Below, piece by piece: positions 4,794 to 40,251 of a stretch of DNA of 43,982 nucleotides. Numbering within the stretch: the first letter of the stretch is position 1; the number at the start of each line of letters is the position of its first letter. A model generated the notes under the pieces. That model ran no database searches. It saw only the letters and a program-made list of their open reading frames with translations, and was not told the DNA's origin. The DNA comes from a virus. Made by a program: the position numbers and the translations under genes. The stretch is from UHGV virus genome UHGV-0179801; one strand, written 5' to 3'.

Positions 4794-4822
4794 TTGCACA
4801 CACCAATATAATAGGGTACTAT
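4794..4822 (+). promoter_or_regulatory. type-A promoter/operator cassette (TTGCAC-N17-TACTAT)
   Basis: TTGCACACACCAATATAATAGGGTACTAT; near-identical copies at 6601, 40223 and 18086(-); contains dyad AATAG-N4-CTATT. Confidence 0.6.
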
Positions 4823-4850
4823 TCATTACATCGAAACGAGGAGATGAAAA

Positions 4851-5024
4851 ATGTTCAAAGAAAAAGACATAATGCACGAAAACGGCAAATACTGGGTTCT
4901 AAATGATAAAGGAGTGTACTGCGTAATGATTTCCGGGTTTACCCACGCTAAAGCTGATAGTGCATACGCTAGTTTAGATTTAGCGATAGCCCGCTGTGAT
5001 TATCTGGCGAGTAGAGACGCATAA
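4851..5024 (+). CDS. small protein (57 aa), rightward island 1
   Basis: Hand-found ORF: AGGAGA SD, ATG 4851, MFKEKDIMHENGKYWVLNDKGVYCVMISGFTHAKADSAYASLDLAIARCDYLASRDA, TAA 5024; own promoter and terminator; AT-rich. Confidence 0.55.
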   Translation: MFKEKDIMHENGKYWVLNDKGVYCVMISGFTHAKADSAYASLDLAIARCDYLASRDA

Positions 5025-5027
5025 ACT

Positions 5028-5050
5028 AAGGCCCCGTAATGGGGCCTTTT
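5028..5050. terminator. bidirectional GC-hairpin terminator
   Basis: AAGGCCCC-GTAAT-GGGGCCTT + TTTT; between convergent genes 4851..5024(+) and 5052..5510(-). Confidence 0.7.
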
Positions 5051-5051
5051 A

Positions 5052-5510
5052 TCAATCTGGCTTAGTGACCTTCGCCGCCTTGCTTACCACCTCAACTCCA
5101 TCGGTATCAGTAACTTTAACGAAGTATTCGCCAGCTGCGTTAACCGACAGAGACAAAGCCTGTTCTGGTGCGTTAACCACTTCCTTACCGTCCTTGTACC
5201 AGGTCAGAGTATACGGCGCTTTACCCGCTTTAACTTCGACAGTGATAGTTGCGCTGCCGTCTGCCAGTTCGGCGTCCTGCGGTTGCACAGAGAAATACAC
5301 ATCGCCAGCATCAGCCAGATACGGAATCTCATAAAGCATACCCGCCGCCGGCAGCGCAATACCGGTTTTATCTGCAAACGGCATATCGTCTACGGGCGTA
5401 CCGAGTACACTTTCATCTTCAATAAATACCACGTTCTCGCCGGAGCCAGACACGCGGGCGTACTGGACTACGCGACGCGCGGGTACATCAGTTACTTTGA
5501 AAAAGCCCAT
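5052..5510 (-). CDS. Ig-like domain-containing virion protein
   Basis: 152 aa; C-terminal I-set Ig pattern ATITVEVKAGKAPYTLTWYKDGKEV...AGEYFVKVTD. Confidence 0.55.
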   Translation of the reverse strand: MGFFKVTDVPARRVVQYARVSGSGENVVFIEDESVLGTPVDDMPFADKTGIALPAAGMLYEIPYLADAGDVYFSVQPQDAELADGSATITVEVKAGKAPYTLTWYKDGKEVVNAPEQALSLSVNAAGEYFVKVTDTDGVEVVSKAAKVTKPD

Positions 5511-5512
5511 CG

Positions 5513-6556
5513 TTATTCCCCTTTCAGATAATCAGCAACACGTTTATCGAGTTCCGCCATCTGCTTAAGCGTCAGCGGATTCCCGAAACCATCTACAGAT
5601 ATTACGCGAAACTCTTCCGGTGATATACCGCTGTTACGGAAAATCTTACCGCGTGTCGGCCCGAGTGCTTCATCCTGAAACCATGCCGGTTGTTGTTTCA
5701 GGAACTCGTAATAGGTTGTGTCCGCGCTTACCTGAGTTCCTCCGTCTGCACCCTTAGCCGCACGTTTTGCGCCTTTATCGAGGAAGTCGAACTCCGAGCT
5801 AATTACCGGAGCCGTGCACGACCGGCAGTTCGGATGGGCGGGGGGCATCGGCCCTTTACCAATTTCCCACGTCATCCCGTCTCTGGCTCTGCAAATCGTA
5901 CTTGTACGGCTGTCGAGGGTGGATACCCACTCGTACTTCTCGATGATGTCGTCGTTCTGACGGTACGTCTCGTTACGTGCTTCGTTGGACACGTGGGACA
6001 GCGCGGTGCGTATTACAGTAGCCGCATTGCGCTCAGAGACATCGGCCAGGCCACCCGCGCCAACAACATTCTTAACAATCTGCCGTGTGGTTTGGCCTTG
6101 TACAAATCCCATCTTAACGCCCGTTACCAGGCGCGCGACCTCCGCTTCGCCCCAGCCATCCATCAGCTTGGTGAAATCGACAGGCTTGTCACTTAGTGAC
6201 AGAGGTTGAAACTCGGCAGCGGCCCACACCTGCTCAGCGGTAGGAGTAATAAATTCTGCGTTAACATTGGTCGTCAGTGTTTTTACGTTCCACTCAGCCT
6301 CATATGCCGCCAGTTCCTTAAGGTCTTCTGTCAGCTTTGTTTGCCAGTCACCTGTAAGGCCTGCCAGTGCTTCTTCGAGGTCGCGTAACAGTTTATTCAG
6401 TCTGGCGGTGCTGCGACCGTCGTCGCCGAATAACAGCACCTGCCGTTTTATTTCGTCACGCATCTCCTGAATGAACGGTGTGAGGTCTTTCACCTCGCCG
6501 GATGCGGTGCGTTGCAGCCATATCTGGTGGCTGATTAAGGATGTAAGTAAGCTCAT
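5513..6556 (-). CDS. head morphogenesis protein (SPP1 gp7 / Mu F-like)
   Basis: ORF 5513..6613 trimmed to ATG 6556 (AGGAGG SD); 347 aa; HPNCRSC motif typical of MuF family; downstream of portal. Confidence 0.75.
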   Translation of the reverse strand: MSLLTSLISHQIWLQRTASGEVKDLTPFIQEMRDEIKRQVLLFGDDGRSTARLNKLLRDLEEALAGLTGDWQTKLTEDLKELAAYEAEWNVKTLTTNVNAEFITPTAEQVWAAAEFQPLSLSDKPVDFTKLMDGWGEAEVARLVTGVKMGFVQGQTTRQIVKNVVGAGGLADVSERNAATVIRTALSHVSNEARNETYRQNDDIIEKYEWVSTLDSRTSTICRARDGMTWEIGKGPMPPAHPNCRSCTAPVISSEFDFLDKGAKRAAKGADGGTQVSADTTYYEFLKQQPAWFQDEALGPTRGKIFRNSGISPEEFRVISVDGFGNPLTLKQMAELDKRVADYLKGE

Positions 6557-6600
6557 ATGCCCTCCTGTAGTATCGACAGTGTAACGCATAAAAATAATAT

Positions 6601-6629
6601 TTGCAGACACCAATATAATAGGGTACTAT
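6601..6629 (+). promoter_or_regulatory. type-A promoter/operator cassette (TTGCAG-N17-TACTAT)
   Basis: TTGCAGACACCAATATAATAGGGTACTAT followed by the same leader ...CGAAACGAGGAGATGA.AAATG as copy 4794. Confidence 0.6.
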
Positions 6630-6656
6630 TCAGTTATCGAAACGAGGAGATGAGAA

Positions 6657-7178
6657 ATGGTTACTACAGTAATTACTTTCCCTGCGTATGTAGGGGCGAA
6701 AATCTGCAGGGCGAAAAATGATGTGCGCTATTATTTGAACGCTTTTTACATAGACCCTGAAGGATTGATAGTTTCTACGGATGGTCACAGATTGTTCTGC
6801 GACAACGTGAAGACAAACGTCGAAACTGGAGTTCTAATAGACATCAAAGGGAGGGAGCCTTCTAAATTTAACTACGCGGAGGTAGACCACGACAACGGTA
6901 GTGTTTCTTTCTATGACGATAGTAGTGCGCTTGTATGTACACTTCCTATTGAAGTTGTAGACGGGAGATTTCCTTACTGGAGACGTGTGGCCGGCATTAC
7001 GCCGGGTTCAGTCGATAGCATAGGGTTCTCTCTGCGCTATTTGGCGGACGCGTACAAGATTTCTAAGGCATACAAAAATGAAATTGCCCGTTTCGATTTC
7101 CAGGACCAAACAAACGGATGCAAAATATCATTTTCAAACACTGCATTTATGGTGCTAATGCCAGCGCGATTTAAATAA
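6657..7178 (+). CDS. truncated DnaN (beta sliding clamp)-like protein, rightward island 2
   Basis: 173 aa; blocks DVRYYLN, TDGHRL, VDGRFPYWRRV, IGFSLRY, LMPARF match E. coli DnaN domain II and C-terminal half of domain III (from memory of DnaN). Confidence 0.8.
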   Translation: MVTTVITFPAYVGAKICRAKNDVRYYLNAFYIDPEGLIVSTDGHRLFCDNVKTNVETGVLIDIKGREPSKFNYAEVDHDNGSVSFYDDSSALVCTLPIEVVDGRFPYWRRVAGITPGSVDSIGFSLRYLADAYKISKAYKNEIARFDFQDQTNGCKISFSNTAFMVLMPARFK

Positions 7179-7182
7179 AACT

Positions 7183-7206
7183 AAGGCCCCGAAAGGGGCC
7201 TTTTCT
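7183..7206. terminator. bidirectional GC-hairpin terminator
   Basis: AAGGCCCC-GAAA-GGGGCCTT + TTTC; between 6657..7178(+) and portal stop 7207(-). Confidence 0.7.
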
Positions 7207-8679
7207 TTACTCCTGTTGCTGCTGCGCCGACTGCGGAATCTCTCCTGCTACCTGAGTAACAGCACCCAATGGCAACGGTGCATCTTCGATAGCGTTCTGA
7301 ATATCCTCGTCGGTCCAGTCGGTCACACCTGCCTTACGCAACGCCGCATAGTAAGCGGTAGCCGGTAGCAGGCCCGCGTTAATGTCCGCCATCCACTGAG
7401 CGCGGTCCTGGGCGGTCATCGGTTGCAGGAAGAACTCCATATTCAGTTTGAACTCAATCTCTGTGCCTTCACGCAGCCCAAGCATCGCCGCTACCCAGCG
7501 CAACGCATCTGTATACGCCATGCTTACATTACGTGCGATTGTCGCCATGACGGACGTATCCGCACCACGTTGCAGGCGGGCTGATTCGGCGGTGATTTGC
7601 TGCGTCGGGGTGATAAGCTGTGCGCCAATCTGAATTGCCTGATTCTCTTTATCCAGCATGTTCTGTTTGGCGAGGTTGTTCTCTCCCGCCTGAACCAGAA
7701 ACGCATTGCCGCCGTAGCCGATGTTATGGCCTGAACGAGACCCCATGCGCACGCCGTGTGGGTTAGCTTCTTTCCACTGTTCCATGCTCATGTTCTCACC
7801 TGGCGCAATGAACAGAGTGGGCTGGCCTACAACGAAGCTGGACTCCTCATTGTCCGCGCTGTTGCGGAAATGTCCGATATTAAGCTCAGCCAACGGCAGC
7901 AAAGGTGCATCATCAATGGTTGCGTCGTTGTTGCTCGCCCCAATGAACGTGAACGGTATTTTACCGCGCAGCTGTTCTCCGAGTTCCGGGAAGATTTCGA
8001 TTACGTCACCCTGAGCACCACCTTCGGCGTCGAAGCGGTAAATGCGCTGGCGGTAGCGCCCGTCAATCAAATCGAGAACGCGGTATTGTTCGCCGAATTT
8101 TGTTTCGAACTCCGCGCCCGGTTCTGAGTATTCCCACACCTCACGCAGCACGACCGTTGTCACACGGTTAACAGAACCGATGCGTGTCAGTCGCCAGTTG
8201 ATGATGTTCTCTGCGGTATAGAATGCGATTACCGGGTTTAATAACCCCGCGTTCTGCTCTGCCGCCGTTGCCGCGGCTGTCTCTGGGGCGTCCACCAGCA
8301 ACCCGCCGCGGCCAACCGAGTCAATCTCCATCAGCGTGTCCTGCGCGTGCTGCCACAACCCGACACCAGAACCGTCGGCATTACGTAACAGGTACTCCAG
8401 TTCAGGCGGGATAATTTGCTCGGGGTCTTTACGCATCACTGACCCCACCATCCCGGCCAGAGTACGTTTGGTGAAGTTGTAGCAGATAGCGCCGTTCTCG
8501 TATTCTTCCTGGCGCTGCGCAGCGTAGGTAGGCTCCGGCTCGTTCTTCCCGACGTTGCGAAGATAGCGGATAAGGTCGCCTTCCAGCGCGTGGCGTACCT
8601 TCTGCCATTTATCGAAGTGATGCAGCCATTCCCGGTGTTTTGTTTTAACACCCTGATTCTGACCGTTCATAGTTAACAT
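7207..8679 (-). CDS. portal protein
   Basis: 490 aa, AAGAGGA SD before ATG 8679; immediately downstream of terminase large subunit; size typical. Confidence 0.8.
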   Translation of the reverse strand: MLTMNGQNQGVKTKHREWLHHFDKWQKVRHALEGDLIRYLRNVGKNEPEPTYAAQRQEEYENGAICYNFTKRTLAGMVGSVMRKDPEQIIPPELEYLLRNADGSGVGLWQHAQDTLMEIDSVGRGGLLVDAPETAAATAAEQNAGLLNPVIAFYTAENIINWRLTRIGSVNRVTTVVLREVWEYSEPGAEFETKFGEQYRVLDLIDGRYRQRIYRFDAEGGAQGDVIEIFPELGEQLRGKIPFTFIGASNNDATIDDAPLLPLAELNIGHFRNSADNEESSFVVGQPTLFIAPGENMSMEQWKEANPHGVRMGSRSGHNIGYGGNAFLVQAGENNLAKQNMLDKENQAIQIGAQLITPTQQITAESARLQRGADTSVMATIARNVSMAYTDALRWVAAMLGLREGTEIEFKLNMEFFLQPMTAQDRAQWMADINAGLLPATAYYAALRKAGVTDWTDEDIQNAIEDAPLPLGAVTQVAGEIPQSAQQQQE

Positions 8680-8691
8680 TGAATAATCCTC

Positions 8692-9963
8692 TTAAAGTGC
8701 GAAAGTCACCGGGACGTTAATAACTGGTTTGCGAATCGGCATTTCATACGCAATTGGGTATGTGGTTCCGTCATTCTGATGGTCCACGCCGCCAGATTTA
8801 TCCGGTTCGCCGTTCTTGTCGTAAGCCTGTTGCTCAAGGCATCGCGCCGTAACCGGACAAGCCTGCTCGTTAATCATGACCATACCAGATTCAAGCGCCT
8901 TATTCATCGCCGATACTCGGTCTTTAACCGGTGGGTTTGCCGATTTTGCACGCACTTCGAAACCGGCCTGCTGTAACTGGGCGATGTCTGATGTACTGGC
9001 GTTGTTGCTTTTACGGTTTTTGCCGCTGGCGTCAGGATACATAACAATATAGTGGCCTTTACTTTTCCATCGCTCTGTTATCGCCCGCACCACATCTGGC
9101 GTGTCGAACATATCAACCAACTCGGCAACAGCGTGCCAGACTTTACCACGTTGCACGTAAACTGTGCTCGCCATGTGACCTACGTTAAAATCCTGCCCAA
9201 TATACAGAGTCTCGCCAGGCTTGATTGTTTCGCGACTGCTGTTTTTCCTGCGGTCGTAAGCGTAATAGACCGTTCCGGCTGTGAGGTTTACGAACTCGCC
9301 GTTGATGTAGGCATCAATCAACTGCCCCGGGTAGGTGTCGCGCAATGACTGCACATAATCTTCTGGCAGGAACGGGTTAGACAGGGTGGATGCCTGAATC
9401 ATCTCGTAACCGGGATTCTTTTTGACCACCCAGCGGTCATGTACGAAACGGAATCCCTCCGGCGTAGTGAACACGGAAACGGTATTAGCCGGTTTAGGTG
9501 TAATAGGTTTATATGTCCGCGGCAACTGGCGGTTACGGGCGATGACTTTGTTCCACGCGTGCTCGGCGTGCTCCATGTTAAGGGTGTCCAACTCGTCGAT
9601 TTTTGCGCGAAACGATTCGTAGCCAACGATTCGTGCTGGATTATCGAGAGTACGCAGGACAAAATCCCCGAATTGTCCGGATGATGTATAGATTATGTTG
9701 TCGGACTTATTGTATTTGTACCTCACGCCCCAGTCGGTGAGTTTTTCTTCCATACGAGGCGCAAGGATGAGGCGCACCAGGTCGTATGTCGGCTCGTACA
9801 TGGCGATGATAGAATCGCTACCACCTTCCATGCTGTCGAGTAGTGCAGAGTTGCACATAACTTCGGATTTGCCAGTGCCAAATCCCGCCACGAATGCCGG
9901 AAACTTGCAGTGCATTCCGAGAAACGCGCCTTGCGGTTCTGTCGCCGTGATATTAACGTTCAC
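8692..9963 (-). CDS. terL: terminase large subunit
   Basis: 423 aa; GTG 9963 with AAGGTGG SD; Walker A-like GFGTGKS; overlaps terS stop. Confidence 0.85.
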   Translation of the reverse strand: MNVNITATEPQGAFLGMHCKFPAFVAGFGTGKSEVMCNSALLDSMEGGSDSIIAMYEPTYDLVRLILAPRMEEKLTDWGVRYKYNKSDNIIYTSSGQFGDFVLRTLDNPARIVGYESFRAKIDELDTLNMEHAEHAWNKVIARNRQLPRTYKPITPKPANTVSVFTTPEGFRFVHDRWVVKKNPGYEMIQASTLSNPFLPEDYVQSLRDTYPGQLIDAYINGEFVNLTAGTVYYAYDRRKNSSRETIKPGETLYIGQDFNVGHMASTVYVQRGKVWHAVAELVDMFDTPDVVRAITERWKSKGHYIVMYPDASGKNRKSNNASTSDIAQLQQAGFEVRAKSANPPVKDRVSAMNKALESGMVMINEQACPVTARCLEQQAYDKNGEPDKSGGVDHQNDGTTYPIAYEMPIRKPVINVPVTFAL

Positions 9964-10462: not shown

Positions 10463-10527
10463 AGAATCCCCTTGCATATGCGTCTGACCATCAGAGCGCA
10501 CCAGACGCGCCCTACGCGTCTAAAGGG

Positions 10528-10557
10528 ATTATATAAGGGGATTGGGCGGGATGTACA
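10528..10557 (-). promoter_or_regulatory. candidate promoter TGTACA-N18-TATAAT upstream of terS
   Basis: Consensus TATAAT on minus strand (10533..10528); 7-bp hairpin AGACGCG/CGCGTCT (10503..10521) at predicted 5' end. Confidence 0.3.
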
Positions 10558-11045: not shown

Positions 11046-11074
11046 ACTATACTAGCAGGCTATTCACGCGTCAA
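11046..11074 (-). promoter_or_regulatory. type-B promoter/operator (TTGACG-N17-TATAGT)
   Basis: Minus strand TTGACGCGTGAATAGCCTGCTAGTATAGT. Confidence 0.55.
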
Positions 11075-11089
11075 CAACTTCTGTCTGTA

Positions 11090-11191: not shown

Positions 11192-11367
11192 TTCAAGAAT
11201 CTCAACAGGGCATCGGCAATACCTGATGTTACCAGTCCGAAAAACATAGGCCACCAGATATATCCGGGCAGATTGGTAAATGTTTCTGGCTTAGTACAGA
11301 AAGCCAGTAAAAACGCGAACCAAAACACTATATAACTAATGCTGCTGAGTAATTCTAAAATGCTCAT
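11188..11367 (-). CDS. small membrane protein (59 aa)
   Basis: Hand-found, ATGA-coupled to 11364..11600; MSILELLSSISYIVFWFAFLLAFC...FFGLVTSGIADALLRFLK (2 TM). Confidence 0.5.
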   Translation of the reverse strand: MSILELLSSISYIVFWFAFLLAFCTKPETFTNLPGYIWWPMFFGLVTSGIADALLRFLK

Positions 11368-11600
11368 TCCCCACCCTCCCCTTTAGCAATACGTTGCTCT
11401 GTTTTAGTGATACCGCGGCGCGTGAATAACACCGGGCTTGTCTTAACGTGCGTCATCAGACGGTTGTTATAAATTACGTGGCGCTCGCAATCAACGTCTT
11501 TGCTGTACTTTGCAATCGTCATTTCGTTGATGCCGGTTTGTCGACATGTCTCCGCCATTGTGCCGAATTCTTTGATCAGGTTCGGAATGCTGGTAATCAA
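11364..11600 (-). CDS. HTH DNA-binding protein (78 aa)
   Basis: TTG 11600 with AAGGAGAG SD, TTGA coupling; HTH-like GTMAETCRQTGINEMTIAKY. Confidence 0.55.
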   Translation of the reverse strand: MITSIPNLIKEFGTMAETCRQTGINEMTIAKYSKDVDCERHVIYNNRLMTHVKTSPVLFTRRGITKTEQRIAKGEGGE

Positions 11601-13471: not shown

Positions 13472-13500
13472 AATATAGTAGGGTCGAGGATAATAGTCAA
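13472..13500 (-). promoter_or_regulatory. promoter TTGACT-N17-TATATT
   Basis: Minus strand TTGACTATTATCCTCGACCCTACTATATT, just after the endolysin terminator; leader contains CAACGAGAACGGAG. Confidence 0.5.
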
Positions 13501-13521
13501 CTAGTCATTACAGAAAATAGA

Positions 13522-16436: not shown

Positions 16437-16709
16437 TTACTCAACAGCACCTGTTATTGCTATAAGCCCAGTTTTACCCCGGCGGCGGTACTTACGAATC
16501 ACCGTTTTAAGTTCGTCATTACTACTCTGATGCCCAAAAGTGATCGGCAACTCTTCCCCACCTGTCATACCAAACTCGGTGTCTGTCGGTTTGTTCCGCC
16601 ACCCCTGAATAAAACCGAAACGGTCGCGAGTTATATACCGGTAGTTGTTAGGGAGGGGCAATTCCAGCCCCTCAAAATCAACGGTAACGGTGTAGCTGCT
16701 AAAATTCAT
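16437..16709 (-). CDS. hypothetical protein (90 aa)
   Basis: ORF 16437..16715 (TTG) trimmed to ATG 16709. Confidence 0.55.
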   Translation of the reverse strand: MNFSSYTVTVDFEGLELPLPNNYRYITRDRFGFIQGWRNKPTDTEFGMTGGEELPITFGHQSSNDELKTVIRKYRRRGKTGLIAITGAVE

Positions 16710-16848
16710 AGTCAATTACCCCGAACTCGTTGATGATTTGCGCCTTGTAGAAGTTGCCGTTTGAGGCCAGGTGATACGCCTGCGCCATAGTCATCTCGCG
16801 ATAAGTTGCGGTGCTATTTTCAAACTCCATAACCATCAAAGTAACCAT
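16699..16848 (-). CDS. hypothetical protein (49 aa)
   Basis: Hand-found: ATG 16848 behind 24-nt leader identical to that of 16417; MVTLMVMEFENSTATYREMTMAQAYHLASNGNFYKAQIINEFGVIDYEF. Confidence 0.5.
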   Translation of the reverse strand: MVTLMVMEFENSTATYREMTMAQAYHLASNGNFYKAQIINEFGVIDYEF

Positions 16849-16879
16849 CTTCTGTCTCTCCTCTCGTTTGTGCAAATGA

Positions 16880-16908
16880 ATAGTAACCTATTCTATCCCA
16901 GTGAGCAA
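16880..16908 (-). promoter_or_regulatory. type-A promoter variant (TTGCTC-N17-TACTAT)
   Basis: Minus strand TTGCTCACTGGGATAGAATAGGTTACTATTCA. Confidence 0.5.
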
Positions 16909-17271: not shown

Positions 17272-17306
17272 AAATGAGAAAAATGGTACGCTGCTGTGTA
17301 GCAGCG
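17272..17306 (-). terminator. possible terminator hairpin
   Basis: Minus strand CGCTGCT-ACAC-AGCAGCG then TACCATTTTTCTCATTTTT. Confidence 0.4.
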
Positions 17307-17330
17307 TAAGTCACAAAGCCAAATAGTAAC

Positions 17331-17492
17331 CTATTGACCTATTACACCACCTGTTACACCAGCGCGAAATTGCACACCAGCTTTCCACGCCCGCCACGCG
17401 AGACGCGTCTTAACGTTCAGGTACTCTTTCTTCGAACCTTTGTTAACCGGCAGACCCTCTACGACGGCCCACCGTTCAAATGCTTCTCTCAT
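17331..17492 (-). CDS. hypothetical protein (53 aa)
   Basis: Hand-found, ATGA-coupled at 17492; MREAFERWAVVEGLPVNKGSKKEYLNVKTRLAWRAWKAGVQFRAGVTGGVIGQ. Confidence 0.45.
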   Translation of the reverse strand: MREAFERWAVVEGLPVNKGSKKEYLNVKTRLAWRAWKAGVQFRAGVTGGVIGQ

Positions 17493-18023: not shown

Positions 18024-18057
18024 CTTTAAATTCCTTATGTCTCGTTGCTATAAGTGA

Positions 18058-18086
18058 ATAGTATCCTATTATATTGGTGTGTGCAA
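18058..18086 (-). promoter_or_regulatory. type-A promoter/operator cassette, leftward early
   Basis: Minus strand TTGCACACACCAATATAATAGGATACTAT; plus strand also reads TTGCTA-N16-TATTAT (18045..18072). Confidence 0.6.
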
Positions 18087-18158
18087 GAGAGTAGTTACGC
18101 TGCCGTTGTGATTCTTCAGGTAGGGTTGTGCCTTTATTCTTATTACTTGGTAACTAAA

Positions 18159-18179
18159 GGGCAGGCCTTAAGCCTGCCC
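18159..18179. other. 8-bp GC hairpin in control region
   Basis: GGGCAGGC-CTTAA-GCCTGCCC; only weak T-tracts on either strand. Confidence 0.5.
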
Positions 18180-18267
18180 GGTAAGGGTTACATTTTTACG
18201 GTTGCGAATCTACGGCACTTTAATAAAATCAGATACTTAAGAGATATGCCGCCGATGAAAATAGAGC

Positions 18268-18280
18268 TTGCCCAGGGCAA
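18268..18280. repeat. 13-bp palindrome TTGCCCAGGGCAA
   Basis: Read directly in non-coding control region. Confidence 0.7.
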
Positions 18281-18334
18281 CCGGAGATACTTAGAAAGGA
18301 AAGTTACGATAATTCTTGTGTTCAGTAAACTTTC

Positions 18335-18367
18335 GCTTAACCCTTTGCTTAACGCACGGTTTAAGCG
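18335..18367. repeat. GCTTAAC x2 direct plus inverted TTAAGCG
   Basis: 18335..18341, 18347..18353, 18361..18367; could form alternative hairpins or act as iterons. Confidence 0.5.
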
Positions 18368-18456
18368 GTTTTACAAGGTGAACAAGAATCAAAGTAACTA
18401 AGATATAGAAGCACCTTAAACGAAGATTTTCATAATGTCAATAGGTGTGATTATGT

Positions 18457-18485
18457 TTGATTTCCCATTATTCGCAATGTATACT
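18457..18485 (+). promoter_or_regulatory. rightward early promoter TTGATT-N17-TATACT
   Basis: Good sigma70 match about 30 nt upstream of the first rightward gene. Confidence 0.55.
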
Positions 18486-18517
18486 CGATTTTGTTAACTG
18501 ATAATGAGGGTTTGAGA

Positions 18518-18688
18518 ATGACACAGAATGAAGTAGCCGAGCGTATCGGTGTTACTCGTCGCACGCTGAATAACTGGTTAAAGAGTGGGAAGTTCCCTGA
18601 TTGTTGTATTCGCATTATGGGCCGCCGTCAGCCAGGTACGTTTGACCGGGAGAAAGTGGAAGCGTGGATTAAGGAGAACGTGAAATGA
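18518..18688 (+). CDS. small HTH DNA-binding protein (56 aa, AlpA/excisionase-like fold)
   Basis: ORF 18491..18688 trimmed to ATG 18518 (GAGGG SD); MTQNEVAERIGVTRRTLNNWLKSGKFP. Confidence 0.65.
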   Translation: MTQNEVAERIGVTRRTLNNWLKSGKFPDCCIRIMGRRQPGTFDREKVEAWIKENVK

Positions 18689-21555: not shown

Positions 21556-21584
21556 AAAAAAAATAAAGGGGCGTTAAGCCCCTT
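21553..21584 (-). terminator. intrinsic terminator of the Cro-like gene
   Basis: Minus strand AAGGGGC-TTAAC-GCCCCTT followed by TTTATTTTTTTTTT; 5' arm overlaps the last codons. Confidence 0.75.
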
Positions 21585-21789
21585 CACCAAACGCCAGCCA
21601 CTTTGCGTCTACTTGCAGCACTTCCGCCAGCTTGAACAGCGTCGCTGGACGTACGTCCTGAGTTACCCCAAGTGCCAGCTGGTTAATCGCGCCCTGGGAA
21701 ACACCGGCCAGGACAGCCAGACGGCGCTGGGAGATGCCGAGTTCTTTGCGGCGTTGTTCTACACGGATGCCTAGTTCAGATGGTTGCAT
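21574..21789 (-). CDS. XRE/Cro-CI-type HTH transcriptional regulator (71 aa)
   Basis: RRKELGISQRRLAVLAGVSQGAINQLALG is a classic HTH_3 pattern; only minus-strand gene within the rightward arm. Confidence 0.8.
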   Translation of the reverse strand: MQPSELGIRVEQRRKELGISQRRLAVLAGVSQGAINQLALGVTQDVRPATLFKLAEVLQVDAKWLAFGEGA

Positions 21790-21820
21790 GTCAATTACTC
21801 CTTAGTTAGTTGATATGTGA

Positions 21821-21849
21821 ATAGTACCATATTAATTATTTTAGAAAAG
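21821..21849 (-). promoter_or_regulatory. degenerate type-A promoter of the Cro-like gene
   Basis: -10 TACTAT with ...AATATGGTACTATTCAC; -35 poor (TTTTCT/CTTTTC); half-degenerate dyad AATAGtaccATATT 21820..21833. Confidence 0.35.
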
Positions 21850-21853: not shown

Positions 21854-21883
21854 TTGACATCATGAATAGTTCGCTATTATAGT
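21854..21883 (+). promoter_or_regulatory. type-B promoter/operator (TTGACA-N18-TATAGT)
   Basis: TTGACATCATGAATAGTTCGCTATTATAGT; dyad AATAG-N4-CTATT at 21865..21878. Confidence 0.6.
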
Positions 21884-24421: not shown

Positions 24422-24450
24422 TTGACACCTGAATAGTTAGCTATTATATT
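24422..24450 (+). promoter_or_regulatory. type-B promoter/operator (TTGACA-N17-TATATT)
   Basis: TTGACACCTGAATAGTTAGCTATTATATT. Confidence 0.6.
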
Positions 24451-27775: not shown

Positions 27776-28067
27776 GGGCCGCGTACAGAAATACGCAAAG
27801 GAGCGATTCGAGGCCATTGGTGGCCTCGTTAGAAAGCTGTCTTATGAGGGTAGAAACGGAGCGCCTGACCTGCTGGTAGTCCTTCCGGGAGGGGTGATAT
27901 GGTTCGTCGAGGTGAAGAAAGACGAAAACACGGAACCGGAGGCCCATCAGTTGCGGGAACACAAACGGCTTCGTAAACGTGACGCAAATGTTTTTGTAGT
28001 AGGAACAAAAGAAGAGGTTGACACCCTAATAGCGAACTATTATAGTAGCCATACACCAACAATATAA
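27762..28067 (+). CDS. VRR-NUC domain nuclease
   Basis: 101 aa; GAPDLLVVLPGGVIWFVEVKKDE...QLREHKRL = PD..(D/E)xK VRR-NUC pattern. Confidence 0.8.
   Translation: MSTPEGRVQKYAKERFEAIGGLVRKLSYEGRNGAPDLLVVLPGGVIWFVEVKKDENTEPEAHQLREHKRLRKRDANVFVVGTKEEVDTLIANYYSSHTPTI
28018..28046 (+). promoter_or_regulatory. type-B promoter/operator (TTGACA-N17-TATAGT) inside 3' end of VRR-NUC gene
   Basis: TTGACACCCTAATAGCGAACTATTATAGT; leader ACACCAACAAT shared with copy 40223. Confidence 0.55.
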
Positions 28068-30766: not shown

Positions 30767-30792
30767 AAGGCCCCAAACGGGGCCTTAGTTTT
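30767..30792. terminator. bidirectional terminator where the two arms converge
   Basis: AAGGCCCC-AAAC-GGGGCCTT + AGTTTT; A-run on the other side. Confidence 0.75.
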
Positions 30793-35909: not shown

Positions 35910-36421
35910 GTGGTCAACAGGCCGCGCAATAACGGTATCTCTTTAGGTGTCATCAGTATACCAGTGCTCCGTTGGTTCAGCATAGGTGTACCGACATCCG
36001 CAGAGAACTCGCCTTTCTCCTGGTTGATAGCCTGTAACTCGTACACGACCGGGCCGTCAGCCGGATAAGACAGGTCGGTGCTGACATACCGGCGGAATAC
36101 GAACTTCGGCAACTCAGTGTTACTCATCGGGATTTTATCCATCTCATCATCAAGTTGATTGAGAATATCCGGTAAAGTAAATGTTGTCGTCTGGTCCATA
36201 TCACTGTTGTTAGCAGCCCCTGACGCCTCCATCGGGGTTGGCTCGAATGTTATTGTTTCGCCCGTCTCCAGTGTTGCCGTAAGTTCCTGTAGCCCGCGCA
36301 CAAGATAGTACGTCTTCGACAGCAACGGGTGGCTGATTTGCAACGTGATGTAGTCCATCTCGCCGTCGGGGTTTGAGGCCAGCTTACGGCGATAGGCGGC
36401 TTCTACTGATTCCTGGCTCAT
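35906..36421 (-). CDS. minor tail protein (L position)
   Basis: ORF 35906..36436 trimmed to ATG 36421 (ATGA coupling); call by position. Confidence 0.5.
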   Translation of the reverse strand: MSQESVEAAYRRKLASNPDGEMDYITLQISHPLLSKTYYLVRGLQELTATLETGETITFEPTPMEASGAANNSDMDQTTTFTLPDILNQLDDEMDKIPMSNTELPKFVFRRYVSTDLSYPADGPVVYELQAINQEKGEFSADVGTPMLNQRSTGILMTPKEIPLLRGLLTT

Positions 36422-36918
36422 TGCATCGGGTCCCAAATTCGAGGAAACGTTGATTGCGCAGTTCCGTAGGCTTTAAGGAGGCACCCCAGCACATCACCAT
36501 AGCAACCATACAAATCTGGCAGATTGTTAACAAGGCACTGATTATCTTCGTCCTGAAACGGCGATTTCTCGGCGGTTGCCGTGAAAGTAATCGTCCAGTT
36601 AATACCGTCTTCGGTGGCCTCGGCGATGGTGGATGTGATCGTTACCTGATAGTCCTCAATACCCATGCCGAAGTCGTGCGCCATCCAGAAACTTGACGCA
36701 CCGCCATCGACTTTCTCAAGGAACGACAGGAACGCCTGCCGCCCTAGTGCAGATGTAATCAGGGTTACGCTTATCGGAAACACGTCGTAATATGTGTCAC
36801 GGCCCTGACGCACCCCGCCACCGGCTAAATCGACACTCCAGACGTTGTTACGTCTGGTCATTGAGTAGCCTTTTGACACCACCGGCTTAAGGCTACGTGG
36901 AAAGTATAAGTCAGTCAT
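36418..36918 (-). CDS. minor/distal tail protein (M position)
   Basis: 166 aa, TAATG overlap with tape-measure stop; call by position. Confidence 0.5.
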   Translation of the reverse strand: MTDLYFPRSLKPVVSKGYSMTRRNNVWSVDLAGGGVRQGRDTYYDVFPISVTLITSALGRQAFLSFLEKVDGGASSFWMAHDFGMGIEDYQVTITSTIAEATEDGINWTITFTATAEKSPFQDEDNQCLVNNLPDLYGCYGDVLGCLLKAYGTAQSTFPRIWDPMQ

Positions 36919-39341
36919 TATTTAAACCCCGGCGCGTTTCTTGTGGCCTTGCGGGCCTTGCTAATCTTACTGTTGCTGTTCTGCAAAGACGCAGCCACTT
37001 GCTCTTCGATGATGATACGCAGACGTCCTTCGTCATCTTGTTCAGTAGACACATTGCCAATCTGACTCGATGTGTTATTTACGATGGTAACATTAGATGG
37101 GCCACTATTTCCGCTATTATTGCCGTTTAACTGCTGCCGTGTTTGGCTTGCGTTTACCGCGCGCCCCGCCCCCGCCATCTTGATAATCTCTGGGCCGCGC
37201 TCACCGACAAGATAGCTGCCGCCAGCGTTCATTTGCCCGCCCTGTTCGCGGAATCCGGTTAAGGCTAACGCTTGGGTACTCGCAACCGTTGATGTGATGC
37301 CCGCCATCGCCGGTGCGCTGTTTGTCCCTAGGGTAGCCAGGGACGCCATAGCTGCAGCGGGGGCATACGCTGCAGCAATCGCCGCTCCGGTAGCCGATGC
37401 TGTCGCGATGGACGCCGCGGATGCCGTTTGGCCTGTAATCATGTTTTTCAGGTACTCCACCCCCATCTGTGTTAGCCCTGAAACGACCGATGACAGGATT
37501 GCGTTGCCGAGGTTTGCCATTGCTTCGCTAGCGGTCTGAGTACCATTAATAAGTCCGACTATGGAGCTGGACGCGGAAGCACCCACAGCGTCCAGGGAGT
37601 CCATAAGCATATTGTTCCACTCGGATTGGTTGCGGAAACGCTCCTCGGCAGCGGCAGCCAGCCCATCGTTATATTGCTTGTCCAGTTCCGCCCGTGCCTG
37701 CAACGCGACTTCATGCACGGAGTTTTCTTGTGCCTCGTACTCCTCTATAACCGCAAGCCTTTTCTGCCGCTCGAGCTGTAAGTTAGCGATAGGGTCTATT
37801 GACGCCAGAACCGCCACACCTTGTTGCAGTTTTTTCTGTTCCTCGGCTAACTCTTTATCAATAGCGTCTTGTCGTTTTTGCCCGTATTGAAGAACTATTG
37901 CTGTTTTCGCCTTTTCGTATTCTTCAGCAGTTAGCGCCCCTTCTTTTCGGTATTTAGCGGCCTCCTTAAGTTTCTGCTGTTCCTGCGCGTTAATAGCCTT
38001 TAACTCATCGTTGTTCTGACGAGCCAAAGTGTCGAGATAATCTTGCGCCTGTTTACGCAATTGCTCCGCTTTCTTAGCGGCGGCTTTCGCGTCTTTGTCG
38101 TTGGTGTTTCCTGTCCCACCAGTCCCGCCCTTTTTATTAACAAGGCTGGCCAAGTCAATTTCTTGCTTCCTGCGCTCGTCGTACTGCTTGCGCTGCTCCT
38201 CAATTTCTTTCTTGCGCTGCTTAGACCTGTTGGTAATGGCCTGTGATTCGGCCTCTGCACGTTTTATGCTAGCGTCATACGCGGCGTCAGCCTCTGCGGT
38301 CAGGTTTTTAAATGTGAGCGCTGCCGTTTTGCTCGGGTCAAACACGTCGGCAAGGGTCTGGCCAAGCGCTACGGCGTAATCGTCAATGCGCTGGAACCAC
38401 GCAATAACCTCGTGGAATGTCTGCTGAATGTCAGGCAACCATTCACGGATAGCATCTGGAATAGTCCCCAGCGAGTCTGACATATCCGCGGATTTGTCCT
38501 CGGTATCGAATGCCAGGTCATTCAGGGCATCAGAAATAAACTTGAACGACTCATTGAACAGCGTCACCCAATCCTGGAGCGTGGCTGCTATCTCATTAGA
38601 CACTATAGCGTCGGTGAGCGCCGTTACTGCGTCTTCTGCCAACGCAGCTTGTTCGCCTACGGCGTCGCCAAAACCAGACTGCGCTACCGCAAGAACAAGG
38701 CCGTCGAAGGAGTCGGCGAGGCTCGACAACTGACCATCTAATGTCTTCGAGCGCGTCTCCATCGCCCCGGCGAAATCGGTGTTGCCGATGTTTAACAGAT
38801 ATTTCTGAATCTCTTCGGAGTTCTTTTTAACCGTGGTGGTAACGCCGCGGAACGTGAACGACACTGTATCCGCCTGTTGCGACGACTTGATGCCAAACTC
38901 TTTTAGTCGCTCAAACTCAAAGGTACTGGCGTCGGCAACTGCCTCAATCATCTGATTAAGGTCTTTACCCATAGCCGCCGCGGTGTTGCCGTAGGAGATT
39001 AATGCCTCTTTGCTGGGGTTCAGGCCCAGAGCCACCAGCTTAGTAAAGCCTTCCACCGCCTGATTAAGCCCGTATGGTGTTTCTTTTGCGAACTGTTGCA
39101 GGACGCTGAAAGCCTTAGCGGCATTCTCAGCGCTCCCGGTCATCGTGATGAGGCCAGAGTTCAGCTTATCGAAGTTTCGCTGGGATGCCACCAGCGCACT
39201 GAACACCTGCTTGGCGGTTTCCAGGCTGACAACGGCAGCGGCGGCCGCCCCCGCCGCCTTAGTAAGCCCGTTCAGTTGGGATGTGGTTTTATCGACGCCG
39301 GTCGATGATACTCGTACTATCAAGCTAGCGGTATCAGCCAT
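36918..39341 (-). CDS. tail tape measure protein
   Basis: ORF 36918..39356 (TTG) trimmed to ATG 39341; 807 aa, long Ala/Gln/Lys/Glu coiled-coil centre, follows G/GT chaperones. Confidence 0.85.
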   Translation of the reverse strand: MADTASLIVRVSSTGVDKTTSQLNGLTKAAGAAAAAVVSLETAKQVFSALVASQRNFDKLNSGLITMTGSAENAAKAFSVLQQFAKETPYGLNQAVEGFTKLVALGLNPSKEALISYGNTAAAMGKDLNQMIEAVADASTFEFERLKEFGIKSSQQADTVSFTFRGVTTTVKKNSEEIQKYLLNIGNTDFAGAMETRSKTLDGQLSSLADSFDGLVLAVAQSGFGDAVGEQAALAEDAVTALTDAIVSNEIAATLQDWVTLFNESFKFISDALNDLAFDTEDKSADMSDSLGTIPDAIREWLPDIQQTFHEVIAWFQRIDDYAVALGQTLADVFDPSKTAALTFKNLTAEADAAYDASIKRAEAESQAITNRSKQRKKEIEEQRKQYDERRKQEIDLASLVNKKGGTGGTGNTNDKDAKAAAKKAEQLRKQAQDYLDTLARQNNDELKAINAQEQQKLKEAAKYRKEGALTAEEYEKAKTAIVLQYGQKRQDAIDKELAEEQKKLQQGVAVLASIDPIANLQLERQKRLAVIEEYEAQENSVHEVALQARAELDKQYNDGLAAAAEERFRNQSEWNNMLMDSLDAVGASASSSIVGLINGTQTASEAMANLGNAILSSVVSGLTQMGVEYLKNMITGQTASAASIATASATGAAIAAAYAPAAAMASLATLGTNSAPAMAGITSTVASTQALALTGFREQGGQMNAGGSYLVGERGPEIIKMAGAGRAVNASQTRQQLNGNNSGNSGPSNVTIVNNTSSQIGNVSTEQDDEGRLRIIIEEQVAASLQNSNSKISKARKATRNAPGFK

Positions 39342-39666
39342 GATTTCTACCTTCAAAGATTGCTTCTAAGCCCATGATAATGTCTATCTCGAACAGGCTA
39401 AGCTGTTTTTGCGTAACATCGAGATAGGCTTTCAGGTCTTGCCACGTAACGGATTCTCTTGCAAACAATACTACAGCGTCCTCGCGCACGTGTCGCGTAA
39501 ACTTAATGTCACAGTACGTCTCAAAGGTGGATATAAAAAGGGGCGGGCATTCTAGCCCACCCCGTCGCGCTGCACGTTTTTTCTTATCGATTACACCCAT
39601 CGCGATAAGCGCCTGTTCGTGTCCGTCAGCTATAGAATCAAACTCTCTGATTTTATGCTTGTCCAC
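39334..39666 (-). CDS. T-part of tail assembly chaperone (probably made as G-T fusion by -1 frameshift)
   Basis: -1 frame relative to 39699..40115 is open from the G stop through 39334; candidate slip at G GAA AAG|TAG (39702..39708). Confidence 0.5.
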   Translation of the reverse strand: MDKHKIREFDSIADGHEQALIAMGVIDKKKRAARRGGLECPPLFISTFETYCDIKFTRHVREDAVVLFARESVTWQDLKAYLDVTQKQLSLFEIDIIMGLEAIFEGRNHG

Positions 39667-39698
39667 AAACTCATAGGTGGCGAACCTGTACAGCGCGT

Positions 39699-40115
39699 CT
39701 ACTTTTCCTGTAATGCTTTGCGCTCAGCGTTATGGAACGCAGCTACCTGGGTTCCAAGCCCTTTGAACTGGTCCAGCAATTTGTTAAATGCTTCTTTAGA
39801 GAAAGGCTCATCAAAACTCCAGCCGTTTACTACTTCTGCCGCGAGTTGTCGGTTGAGATCTTCCGCCAGTTCGTTAACCGCCAGGTTATATTCAGTATAG
39901 TCGCCGGATTTTTTGGCGGCTTTTTCCAGTTCTTCGAAACGCGCCAGCCCGCGGCGGTACGCGATAATGAAAGCACGCCCGGCTTTAACGGCGGCATCCG
40001 CATCCGGATTTACAACGTTAAGCCACTCCCCTGAGTCTTCACCATTTGGTAGGAGAATGGGCATCTTCTTGCCTACCAGTGCTTTCTCTTCGAAATAAAA
40101 ATCAGAAAGTTTCAT
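39699..40115 (-). CDS. tail assembly chaperone (G-like)
   Basis: 138 aa, AAAGGA SD; position immediately upstream of tape measure. Confidence 0.65.
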   Translation of the reverse strand: MKLSDFYFEEKALVGKKMPILLPNGEDSGEWLNVVNPDADAAVKAGRAFIIAYRRGLARFEELEKAAKKSGDYTEYNLAVNELAEDLNRQLAAEVVNGWSFDEPFSKEAFNKLLDQFKGLGTQVAAFHNAERKALQEK

Positions 40116-40222
40116 TCTTTGATCCTTTGGTTAAGAGGTTACAGGTTAAGGGAAATGCGCCAGACGGGAACCACCCGCTTTTCGTGTGCGACACTAGGCG
40201 CAAACTTATTCTAGCACACTAC

Positions 40223-40251
40223 TTGCACACCCCAATATAATAGGGTACTAT
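40223..40251 (+). promoter_or_regulatory. type-A promoter/operator cassette (TTGCAC-N17-TACTAT)
   Basis: TTGCACACCCCAATATAATAGGGTACTAT; opposite strand offers TTGGTG-N16-TATTAT towards chaperone gene. Confidence 0.6.

What the first reader, a model, noticed from the sequence alone, without database searches (positions are those of the whole stretch)
4794..40251. One dyad (AATAG-N4-CTATT) embedded in at least 11 sigma70-like promoters, used in both orientations
**Type A** (gene orientation TTGCAC-N17-TACTAT; consensus TTGCACACACCAATATAATAGGGTACTATTCA):
- 4794..4822(+)
- 6601..6629(+)
- 40223..40251(+)
- 18058..18086(-)
- 16880..16908(-)
- degenerate copy 21821..21849(-)

**Type B** (TTGACA-N17/18-TATAnT with gAATAGnnnnCTATTATA in the spacer):
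- 21854..21883(+)
- 24422..24450(+)
- 28018..28046(+)
- 11046..11074(-)
- weaker copy 13472..13500(-)
- partial copy at 17321..17345

**Orientation.** The same core GAATAGTnnnCTATTATAtT points away from the gene in type A and towards it in type B. Because it is AT-rich and palindromic, type A also reads TTGnnn-N16/17-TATTAT on the other strand, so back-to-back divergent promoters are possible.

**Interpretation.** A dyad over or next to the -10 of essentially every early promoter is what an operator for one dimeric repressor looks like. That suggests genome-wide early shut-off by a single phage protein. Candidates are the 71-aa Cro-like protein (21574..21789) and the HTH proteins at 18518..18688 and 11364..11600.
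Basis: partly seen in the sequence, partly recalled or inferred. Interest (0 to 1): 0.6.

Follow-up and report, generated by a model that had tools for sequence, protein, structure and literature searches.

The report
Cro-type operator inside a phage's promoters
A virulent coliphage carries the same 14-bp palindrome inside about a dozen of its host-type promoters, and comparison with related phages suggests it is the binding site of the phage's own small 434-Cro-like repressor; this is a classical kind of switch used genome-wide in a phage with no lysogeny genes.

Summary
AATAG-N4-CTATT occurs 9 times exactly (0.03 expected) and 14 times with at most one mismatch (1.2 expected). It is the most over-represented of all 5-Nk-5 palindromes in the window. 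All 9 exact copies lie in the roughly 6% of the window that is intergenic.

Twelve copies sit inside sigma70-like promoters, in three registers: over the -10, in the spacer, and over the -35. They occur in both orientations.

The window is a Kagunavirus (Guernseyvirinae). The dyad is kept at orthologous promoters across Kagunavirus and Jerseyvirus, with conserved arms and a free centre.

Sister lineages have different dyads in the same places: Cornellvirus ...CTAAT, phiEap-2 AATA-N6-TATT, an uncultured lineage TTAG-N4-CTAA, and Edwardsiella eiAU GTTAA-N6-TTAAC. Of the three candidates, only the 71-aa protein is present in all of these lineages. Its sequence and predicted fold match phage 434 Cro best.

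The HTH_17 candidate is absent from three of these lineages. Jerseyvirus and Cornellvirus share a host but differ in dyad, which argues against a host factor.

Kagunavirus papers have already reported the motif, but misread it as a "phage RNA polymerase promoter". Binding and repression remain untested. "Every early promoter" overstates the case.

The parts
4794..4823 (+). Type A promoter: -35 TTGCAC 4794-4799, -10 TACTAT 4817-4822, dyad 4810-4823 centred near -12.5. It drives the 57-aa opposite-strand island gene (ATG 4851).
6601..6630 (+). Type A promoter: TTGCAG-N17-TACTAT, dyad 6617-6630. It drives the 173-aa island gene 6657-7178, annotated RusA-like in a relative.
40223..40252 (+). Type A promoter: TTGCAC-N17-TACTAT, dyad 40239-40252. 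It drives the superinfection-immunity gene (40267-40473) and the phosphoesterase island.
18057..18086 (-). Type A promoter on the minus strand (TTGCAC at 18086-18081), dyad 18057-18070. It heads the leftward small-gene operon (ATG 18023) at the genome's main divergence point.
   Evidence: exact in 13/13 Kagunavirus loci
16879..16908 (-). Type A promoter on the minus strand (TTGCTC-N17-TACTAT), dyad 16879-16892. It drives the DUF7170 gene 16699-16875.
21820..21849 (-). Weak type-A-like promoter of the Cro-like gene. Its dyad is imperfect (in gene orientation AATATGGTACTATT, 21820-21833).
   Evidence: the imperfection is conserved in 13/13 Kagunavirus loci and the site is further degenerate in Jerseyvirus
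21854..21883 (+). Type B promoter: TTGACA-N18-TATAGT, dyad 21865-21878 in the spacer. It is divergent from the Cro-like gene and drives the rightward replication and recombination genes (ATG 21914).
24422..24450 (+). Type B promoter: TTGACA-N17-TATATT, dyad 24432-24445 centred near -18.5. It drives the ssDNA-binding protein and DNA polymerase genes.
28018..28046 (+). Type B promoter: TTGACA-N17-TATAGT, dyad 28028-28041. It drives a 63-aa gene, the C5 methylase and the helicase.
11046..11074 (-). Type B promoter: TTGACG-N17-TATAGT, with a one-mismatch dyad at 11051-11064. It lies upstream of a 76-aa gene and the terminase and portal genes.
13472..13505 (-). Type C promoter: TTGACT-N17-TATATT. 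The one-mismatch dyad (13492-13505) overlaps the -35, and a lone CTATT half-site abuts the -10.
   Evidence: never an exact dyad in 13 Kagunavirus loci
4699..4732 (-). Type C promoter-like site: TTGACT-N17-TAAGCT, with a one-mismatch dyad (4719-4732) over the -35. It faces the spanin, scaffold and capsid genes. Its assignment as an operator is tentative.
17322..17335 (.). Orphan exact dyad between the stop codon of 17331..17492(-) and the terminator 17287-17308. No credible promoter surrounds it.
21574..21789 (-). 71-aa HTH_3 / 434-Cro-like protein, the proposed dyad-binding repressor. The gene is monocistronic and opposite in strand to its neighbours.
21562..21588 (-). Intrinsic terminator of the Cro-like gene.
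18518..18688 (+). HTH_17 (excisionase/MerR-like) protein, a rival candidate that I demote.
11364..11600 (-). NinH-like protein, a rival candidate that is not excluded.

Best explanation
The 14-bp dyad AATAG-N4-CTATT (extended form TnAATAG-N4-CTATTnA) is the operator of a phage-encoded dimeric helix-turn-helix repressor. The most likely repressor is the 71-aa 434-Cro-like protein encoded at 21574..21789(-).

The operator lies inside the core of host sigma70 promoters. It covers the -10 in type A (centre about -12.5), fills the spacer in type B (centre about -18.5), and possibly covers the -35 in type C. A bound dimer would therefore exclude RNA polymerase.

**Proposed course of events (inferred).** On infection there is no repressor, so these near-consensus promoters fire. 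They drive replication and recombination genes, small leftward genes, and the opposite-strand islands embedded in the late region. The repressor gene has a weak promoter and an imperfect operator, so the protein accumulates slowly. It then turns down the promoters that carry perfect dyads.

**Shown:** the motif, its placement, its conservation and lineage-specific divergence, and the identity and fold of the protein.

**Inferred:** binding, the sign of regulation, and timing.
For: **1. The dyad is real and sits at promoters.** Its enrichment is far beyond chance and it is confined to promoter regions.

**2. The arms are conserved and the centre is free.**
- Type B sites carry 25 different N4 sequences.
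- In type A, the last two N4 bases are TA in 103 of 108 unique sites. That is exactly where they form the start of the TACTAT -10.
- So one palindrome is superimposed on promoters in different registers and orientations. Cassette duplication alone does not produce this.

**3. It is conserved in two genera.** It is the top dyad at orthologous promoters in Kagunavirus and Jerseyvirus, in 48 of the 52 loci examined (tied or second in the other four).

**4. It diverges by lineage while the design is kept.**
- Cornellvirus: A[AT]TAn-N4-CTAAT, 7 sites against 1.7 expected.
- phiEap-2 and L112: AATA-N6-TATT.
- L116 and L128: TTAG-N4-CTAA.
- eiAU-183: GTTAA-N6-TTAAC, 5 sites against 0.08 expected, each abutting a TATAGT -10.
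- Each lineage has its own recognition helix in the orthologous Cro-like gene, which sits next to the helicase-primase gene.
- Jerseyvirus and Cornellvirus both infect Salmonella yet differ in dyad.

**5. The protein is Cro-like.**
- It matches HTH_3 (E = 1e-12).
- Its best PDB match is 434 Cro, also 71 aa, aligned end to end.
- Its predicted five-helix fold matches 2cro and 3cro best.
- From established knowledge, 434 Cro binds 14-bp operators with conserved outer bases and an uncontacted centre. That is the geometry seen here.

**6. The method has a positive control.** Lambdoid homologues with a QQ-type helix sit next to 434-type TACAA-N6-TTGTA dyads.

**7. The gene looks autoregulated.** It lies between two dyads. 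The one on its own promoter is imperfect in 13/13 loci.

**8. The HTH_17 candidate is absent** from Cornellvirus, phiEap-2 and eiAU.

**9. Transcriptome data are compatible.** In the Kagunavirus K1B4 RNA-seq study the Cro-like gene (gene 004) is classed as middle, not earliest (PMC12645636).
Against: - No binding or expression data exist for this protein or this motif.
- The distant lineages were found by searching for Cro homologues, so the protein's presence in them is partly by construction.
- Helix residues do not track half-sites simply. Kagunavirus (SQGAINQ) and Jerseyvirus (SQSLITH) share the dyad. Jerseyvirus and Cornellvirus (TQSAISH) have similar helices but different dyads.
- HTH_17 is 89% identical between the two genera that share the exact dyad, so it cannot be fully excluded within them.
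- One-mismatch dyads lie on promoters facing late genes, and the putative earliest promoter lacks a dyad. The circuit is therefore not a simple shut-off of all early promoters.
- The only transcriptome has coarse timing. It places some dyad-driven genes (polymerase, methylase, immunity) in its latest class.
Confidence: 0.6

Rival explanations
1. The dyad is an operator, but a different phage protein binds it. Candidates are the early HTH_17 protein (18518..18688), the NinH-like protein (11364..11600), or an unrecognised small protein.
For: - HTH_17 is 89% identical between Kagunavirus and Jerseyvirus, which share the exact dyad. It is absent where the dyad differs.
- Its orthologue is among the four earliest-peaking genes in K1B4.
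- The NinH-like protein is present in all Guernseyvirinae examined.
Against: - phiEap-2 and Cornellvirus lack HTH_17 but keep closely related dyads (AATA-N6-TATT...CTAAT) in the same promoter registers.
- eiAU lacks both proteins yet has the same design.
- From general knowledge, HTH_17/excisionase-type proteins usually bind direct or asymmetric repeats rather than 14-bp palindromes.
- The NinH-like match is below the Pfam threshold.
- Neither gene is flanked by dyads.
Confidence: 0.15
2. No dedicated regulator exists. The dyad is intrinsic promoter architecture made of AT-rich, -10-like hexamers on both strands (bidirectional promoters). It spread and was homogenised as promoter-leader cassettes by recombination.
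For: - Each arm plus its flank reads as a -10-like hexamer (TATAAT, TACTAT, TATATT).
- Four of the five type A sites lie in divergent intergenic regions.
- The late genes left of 6617 and 40239 have no other obvious promoter.
- Leader modules are shared among promoters.
Against: - In type B the left arm lies in the spacer, where sigma70 needs no specific sequence. It is nevertheless invariant across genera while its neighbours and the N4 change.
- The reverse -35 at type A sites is weak and not conserved (and direct reading of the sequence).
- Predicted opposing transcription starts are about 31 bp apart, not the 18 bp of symmetry-driven bidirectional promoters.
- Phages using the same host RNA polymerase (Jerseyvirus and Cornellvirus) have different dyads.
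Confidence: 0.12
3. A host transcription factor or nucleoid protein binds the dyad.
For: The dyad is shared by phages of E. coli, Salmonella and Raoultella, whose regulators are largely conserved.
Against: - Jerseyvirus and Cornellvirus both infect Salmonella enterica but carry CTATT and CTAAT arms respectively.
- I know of no enterobacterial regulator with this consensus. That rests on memory and was not tested.
- The host genome was not scanned.
Confidence: 0.04
4. The motif is the promoter of a phage-encoded RNA polymerase. This is how the fBC-Eco01 paper labelled the same consensus after a PHIRE search.
For: PMC9825357 reports seven copies of tgAATAGTa-ccTATTat-T as "phage RNA polymerase" promoters.
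Against: - No RNA polymerase gene appears in the annotations of two relatives.
- The largest ORFs of the window correspond in position and size to the helicase-primase, DNA polymerase and tail genes annotated in those relatives; the window's own large ORFs were not family-scanned.
- The sites carry canonical sigma70 -35 and -10 hexamers at 17-bp spacing.
Confidence: 0.01

Closest known systems
Phage 434 Cro and its 14-bp operators (also P22 C2/Cro)
   Same: - A single-domain HTH_3 protein of about 71 aa, and the best sequence and fold match.
- A 14-bp dyad with conserved outer 5 bp and a variable central 4 bp.
- Operators that overlap core promoter elements.
- An operator at the regulator's own divergent promoter region.
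   Different: - There is no CI partner, no integrase and no tripartite OR/OL.
- Single operators are spread over about 12 promoters of a virulent phage.
- The half-site is AATAG, not ACAAG, and Gln29 of the 434 helix is replaced by Gly.
- Binding is not demonstrated.
Dispersed-operator networks of temperate phages: P1 C1 operators and mycobacteriophage L5 (cluster A) stoperators (recalled from knowledge)
   Same: One repressor with a dozen or more sites scattered over the genome, controlling many transcription units.
   Different: - Those sites are asymmetric and, for stoperators, orientation-dependent and often inside transcription units.
- They serve prophage immunity.
- Here the site is palindromic, sits in promoter cores, occurs in both orientations, and the phage is virulent.
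Restriction-modification controller (C) proteins and their C-boxes
   Same: Small XRE-fold dimers (fold hits C.AhdI and C.BclI) that bind dyads overlapping promoters and act as a delay timer through graded-affinity sites.
   Different: - C-boxes are paired dyads at a single promoter, and they activate before they repress.
- No sequence similarity of the sites.
- No restriction enzyme is present here.
The PHIRE-derived "phage promoter" consensus published for Kagunavirus fBC-Eco01 (PMC9825357) and Golestan (PMC7203180)
   Same: It is the same sequence motif (tgAATAGTa-ccTATTat-T), with about seven copies per genome.
   Different: - Those papers assign it to a phage RNA polymerase that these phages do not encode.
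- They note neither the dyad nature, nor the sigma70 context, nor a link to the Cro-like gene.

Membership tests
434-Cro-type repressor/operator system | Small single-domain HTH_3 (XRE) protein with the five-helix 434 Cro fold | tested here: met
   - Pfam HTH_3, E = 1.2e-12.
- 434 Cro is the best PDB sequence hit (E = 4.9e-7), aligning residues 6-68 with 4-64.
- The AF2 model (pLDDT 84) matches 2cro and 3cro best, with TM 0.72-0.79.
434-Cro-type repressor/operator system | Operator of about 14 bp with two-fold symmetry, conserved outer bases and a variable centre | tested here: met
   - 9 exact copies of AATAG-N4-CTATT.
- 25 distinct N4 sequences in type B sites across relatives.
- Logos.
434-Cro-type repressor/operator system | Operators overlap the -35/-10 region, so binding occludes RNA polymerase | tested here: met
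   The dyad centre lies at about -12.5 in type A, -18.5 in type B and -33.5 in type C, relative to the predicted hexamers. Transcription starts are not mapped.
434-Cro-type repressor/operator system | The protein physically binds the operator as a dimer | not testable with these tools
   The only support is comparative co-variation across lineages.
434-Cro-type repressor/operator system | Part of a CI/Cro bistable switch with tripartite OR/OL and lysogeny genes | tested here: not met
   - No CI or integrase is annotated in relatives.
- The fBC-Eco01 paper found no lysogeny genes.
- Operators are single and dispersed. The only pair is at the cro locus, 43-45 bp apart.
Phage-RNA-polymerase promoters (the literature label for this motif) | The phage encodes its own RNA polymerase | tested here: not met
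   No such gene is annotated in two close relatives. The window's largest ORFs correspond in position and size to the helicase-primase, DNA polymerase and tail genes annotated there.
Phage-RNA-polymerase promoters (the literature label for this motif) | The promoter lacks sigma70 -35/-10 architecture | tested here: not met
   TTGACA-N17-TATAnT at 11/12 matches for three sites.
Symmetry-driven bidirectional sigma70 promoters (Warman et al. 2021, recalled) | Opposing -10 hexamers overlap, so divergent starts lie about 18 bp apart | tested here: not met
   At 4810 the forward -10 is 4817-4822 and the reverse -10-like hexamer is 4805-4810. Predicted starts are about 31 bp apart, and the reverse -35 is not conserved.
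Stoperator / P1 C1-type dispersed operators | Asymmetric site of the immunity repressor of a temperate phage, with orientation bias | tested here: not met
   The site is palindromic and used in both orientations. The phage has no lysogeny module. Only the many-dispersed-copies feature is shared.

The most novel reading that the evidence does not exclude
A single Cro-like protein, acting through operators of graded quality, could be the main transcriptional timer of a whole group of virulent siphoviruses (Guernseyvirinae, Eiauvirus and uncultured relatives). Operators are perfect at early, replication and antisense-island promoters. They are persistently imperfect at the protein's own promoter and at late-facing promoters. 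The lineage-specific operator/helix pairs could then act as a specificity code that prevents, or allows, cross-repression between related phages co-infecting one cell, giving a lysogeny-independent form of heteroimmunity.
Probability: 0.2. Interest if true: 0.65.

Novelty: new variant of a known kind. Interest (0 to 1): 0.42.

Why it matters
- It would correct a published misannotation. The motif is labelled a "phage RNA polymerase promoter" in Kagunavirus papers.
- It would give a concrete, testable regulatory model for Guernseyvirinae. This is a common group used in phage therapy and proposed as a synthetic-biology chassis.
- It would show how a Cro-type repressor can run a virulent programme without CI.
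- The lineage-specific dyads offer a ready-made set of candidate orthogonal repressor/operator pairs, and a natural series for studying how HTH specificity evolves.

Tried and rejected
- **Phage-RNA-polymerase promoter reading (PMC9825357).** Rejected. There is no polymerase gene and the sigma70 hexamers are clear.
- **Host-factor reading.** Disfavoured by the difference between Jerseyvirus and Cornellvirus. I could not scan the host genome, because the pattern has too few specified bases for the collection scan.
- **HTH_17 as the binder.** Demoted, because it is absent from Cornellvirus, phiEap-2 and eiAU.
- **A residue-to-base recognition code for the helix.** Attempted, but no simple mapping emerged.
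- **Literature.** Searches for MB78 promoters and for Guernseyvirinae transcription starts found nothing. A free-text search for AATAGT was uninformative. The K1B4 transcriptome has timing too coarse to decide shut-off.
- **RNA searches.** Rfam and tRNA scans of the window found nothing.
- **Type C sites.** Their CT comes from the -35 hexamer and they are never perfect dyads, so I list them only as tentative operators.
- **Cooperative binding at the cro locus.** Unlikely, because the spacing varies from 43 to 45 bp between genomes.

Full report
**What the window is**

A 12-kb stretch matches Kagunavirus coliphages (Guernseyvirinae) at about 90% identity, and Jerseyvirus Salmonella phages more distantly. 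Annotated relatives show small siphovirus genomes with late structural genes, replication genes and many small genes. They carry no integrase, no CI and no RNA polymerase. The fBC-Eco01 paper likewise found no lysogeny genes.

Yes.
- AATAG-N4-CTATT occurs 9 times exactly against 0.03 expected. With at most one mismatch it occurs 14 times against 1.2 expected.
- I counted every 5-Nk-5 palindrome (k = 0-12) without prior assumptions. This dyad ranks first, and the next ones are terminator hairpins.
- All 9 exact copies and 4 of 5 one-mismatch copies lie in the 5.9% of the window that I scored as intergenic.
- An independent consensus scan returns 21854+, 24422+ and 28018+ as the best sigma70-like sites (11/12 matches), followed by 11074- and 13500- (10/12).

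**Anatomy**

There are three registers.
- **Type A** (4794, 6601, 40223 on the plus strand; 18086, 16908 and, in degenerate form, 21849 on the minus strand). The layout is TTGCAC-N17-TACTAT, and the right arm of the dyad forms most of the -10. The centre is near -12.5.
- **Type B** (21854, 24422, 28018 on plus; 11074 on minus). The layout is TTGACA-N17/18-TATAnT. The dyad fills the spacer and its last T starts the -10. The centre is near -18.5.
- **Type C** (13500 and about 4727, both minus strand). A one-mismatch dyad is wrapped round a TTGACT -35. I treat these as tentative.

The central four bases give a telling detail. Across 108 unique type A sites from this window and relatives, the last two N4 bases are TA in 103, which is exactly what the TACTAT -10 needs. 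The 129 type B sites show 25 different N4 sequences with no such constraint. A free-centred palindrome is therefore superimposed on real promoters in different registers.

**What the promoters drive**
- Type B promoters head the replication and recombination operons: ssDNA-binding protein, DNA polymerase, C5 methylase and helicase.
- Type A promoters head the leftward small-gene operon and three opposite-strand islands inside the late region. These are a 57-aa gene, a RusA-like gene, and superinfection immunity plus a phosphoesterase.
- The cargo behind the island promoter varies between relatives. It is a sliding clamp in Schulenburg and an adenine methylase in S100.

**Conservation**
- The same dyad is the top palindrome in two annotated Kagunaviruses and in Jerseyvirus S100, and top, tied or second in all 48 IMG/VR Kagunavirus- or Jerseyvirus-type loci.
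- It lies at orthologous promoters with conserved arms. The N4 differs, as do the bases between the -35 and the arm.
- In the 13 Kagunavirus loci with a full ±10 kb, the sites orthologous to 18057, 21865, 24432 and 28028 are almost always exact.
- The site on the Cro-like gene's own promoter is imperfect in 13/13 loci, and the type C site is never exact.

**Who binds it?**

The 71-aa ORF at 21574..21789(-) has the following properties.
- It matches HTH_3.
- Its best solved relative is 434 Cro, which is also 71 aa, followed by the 434 repressor and P22 C2 N-terminal domains.
- Its AF2 model (pLDDT 84) matches 2cro and 3cro best.
- GenBank records call the orthologue "Cro" or "transcriptional repressor".
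- The gene is monocistronic with its own terminator, on the opposite strand to its neighbours, and sits between two dyads.

From established knowledge, 434 Cro binds 14-bp operators through the outer 4-5 bp of each half and leaves the centre uncontacted. That matches the pattern here.

**The comparative test**

| Lineage | Recognition helix | Dyad |
|---|---|---|
| Kagunavirus | VSQGAINQ | AATAG-N4-CTATT |
| Jerseyvirus | VSQSLITH | AATAG-N4-CTATT |
| Cornellvirus FSL SP-031 | VTQSAISH | No exact AATAG-N4-CTATT. Seven A[AT]TAn-N4-CTAAT sites (1.7 expected), six of them intergenic, in the same promoter registers |
| phiEap-2 | FSQGRVSH | AATA-N6-TATT, 8 copies (0.9 expected) |
| L112 | LSQARISH | AATA-N6-TATT |
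| L116 / L128 | ASQGYISH | TTAG-N4-CTAA, in TTGACc-N17-TAAAGT promoters |
| Edwardsiella phage eiAU-183 | LSRPFISQ | GTTAA-N6-TTAAC, 5 copies (0.08 expected), each abutting the TATAGT -10 of a TTGCAa-N17 promoter |

- eiAU-183 lies outside the subfamily but shares the cro / helicase-primase synteny.
- As a positive control, lambdoid prophage-type homologues with a QQ helix sit beside 434-type TACAA-N6-TTGTA dyads.
- The HTH_17 candidate is absent from Cornellvirus, phiEap-2 and eiAU. The NinH-like candidate is absent from eiAU.
- Jerseyvirus and Cornellvirus infect the same host species but differ in dyad. This argues against a host factor and against a purely polymerase-determined motif.

**Caveats**
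- The distant lineages were found through Cro homology, so the protein's presence there is partly by construction.
- Helix residues do not map simply onto half-site changes.
- HTH_17 is 89% identical in the two genera that share the exact dyad.
- No binding or promoter-activity data exist.
- The only Kagunavirus transcriptome classes the HTH_17 orthologue as early and the Cro-like gene as middle, which fits delayed repressor accumulation. Its time resolution is poor, and it puts polymerase, methylase and immunity genes in its latest class.
- The putative promoter of the HTH_17/helicase-primase operon (18457-18485) lacks the dyad, as does a conserved promoter-like site before terS (10528-10557). 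The dyad therefore does not mark every early promoter.

**Prior knowledge**

The repeat itself has been published. PHIRE found seven copies of tgAATAGTa-ccTATTat-T in fBC-Eco01, where they were called phage-RNA-polymerase promoters. Seven PHIRE motifs were also reported for Golestan. These phages encode no such polymerase. In the literature I could search, no paper describes the dyad nature, the sigma70 context or a link to the Cro-like gene.

**Verdict**

This is a classical Cro-type repressor/operator arrangement used in an unusual way. It has no CI, its single operators are dispersed over about a dozen promoters in three registers, and it sits in a virulent phage, with lineage-specific variants across a wider phage group. 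I rate the operator-of-a-phage-protein reading at about 0.8. The full statement (the Cro-like protein binds and represses) I rate at about 0.6.

Noticed in passing
window 18090-18500: A stretch of about 400 bp with no credible ORF lies just right of the main divergent promoter, at the cumulative GC-skew minimum. It contains the hairpin GGGCAGGCCTTAAGCCTGCCC (18159-18179). It could be a replication origin or a long leader. Rfam finds nothing.
   Followed up: partly
window 7183-7202, 30767-30786, 42010-42029: Three near-identical bidirectional terminators (AAGGCCCC-N4-GGGGCCTT) close the opposite-strand islands and the replication operon. Together with type A promoters they frame cassettes whose cargo differs between relatives: a 57-aa gene here, a sliding clamp in Schulenburg, and an adenine methylase in S100.
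   Followed up: partly
window 10528-10557 (-) and downstream; L083 19456-19530: A promoter-like site without the dyad (TGTACA-N18-TATAAT) lies right after a terminator hairpin and just before terS. A hairpin AGACGCG...CGCGTCT follows it. The block TATATAATCCC...GGGCGCGTCT is conserved in Cornellvirus. It is a candidate late promoter or antitermination site.
   Followed up: no
window 4499-4727 (-): The order here is a TTGACT-N17-TAAGCT promoter, a conserved hairpin AAGCTCCACCTGAGCTT, an intrinsic terminator (4499-4518), and then the spanin, scaffold and capsid genes. The layout is conserved in Kagunavirus and Jerseyvirus and recalls lambda PR'-tR'.
   Followed up: no
window: leaders after 4823, 6630, 16879, 21883, 28046, 40252: Promoters of both types share leader and ribosome-binding-site modules (aAACGAGaGGAG, and ACACCAACAAT at 28046 and 40252). 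This suggests promoter-leader cassettes are shuffled by recombination.
   Followed up: no
window 17322-17335: An exact dyad with no promoter around it lies between a stop codon and a terminator. It was absent from the two annotated Kagunavirus relatives checked. It may be a decayed promoter or a roadblock site.
   Followed up: partly
L001 (OR594180.1) record header: This close relative is filed in GenBank under Autographiviridae/Kayfunavirus and named vB_EcoM. Its sequence and gene content are those of a Kagunavirus siphovirus, so this looks like a taxonomy error in the record.
   Followed up: no
cro-upstream regions of L003, L083, L084, L090, L112, L116: The block TGCAAGCACTTT, between the leftward promoter and the Cro-like gene, is conserved across lineages whose dyads differ. 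It is not seen in the window itself. Its function is unknown.
   Followed up: no
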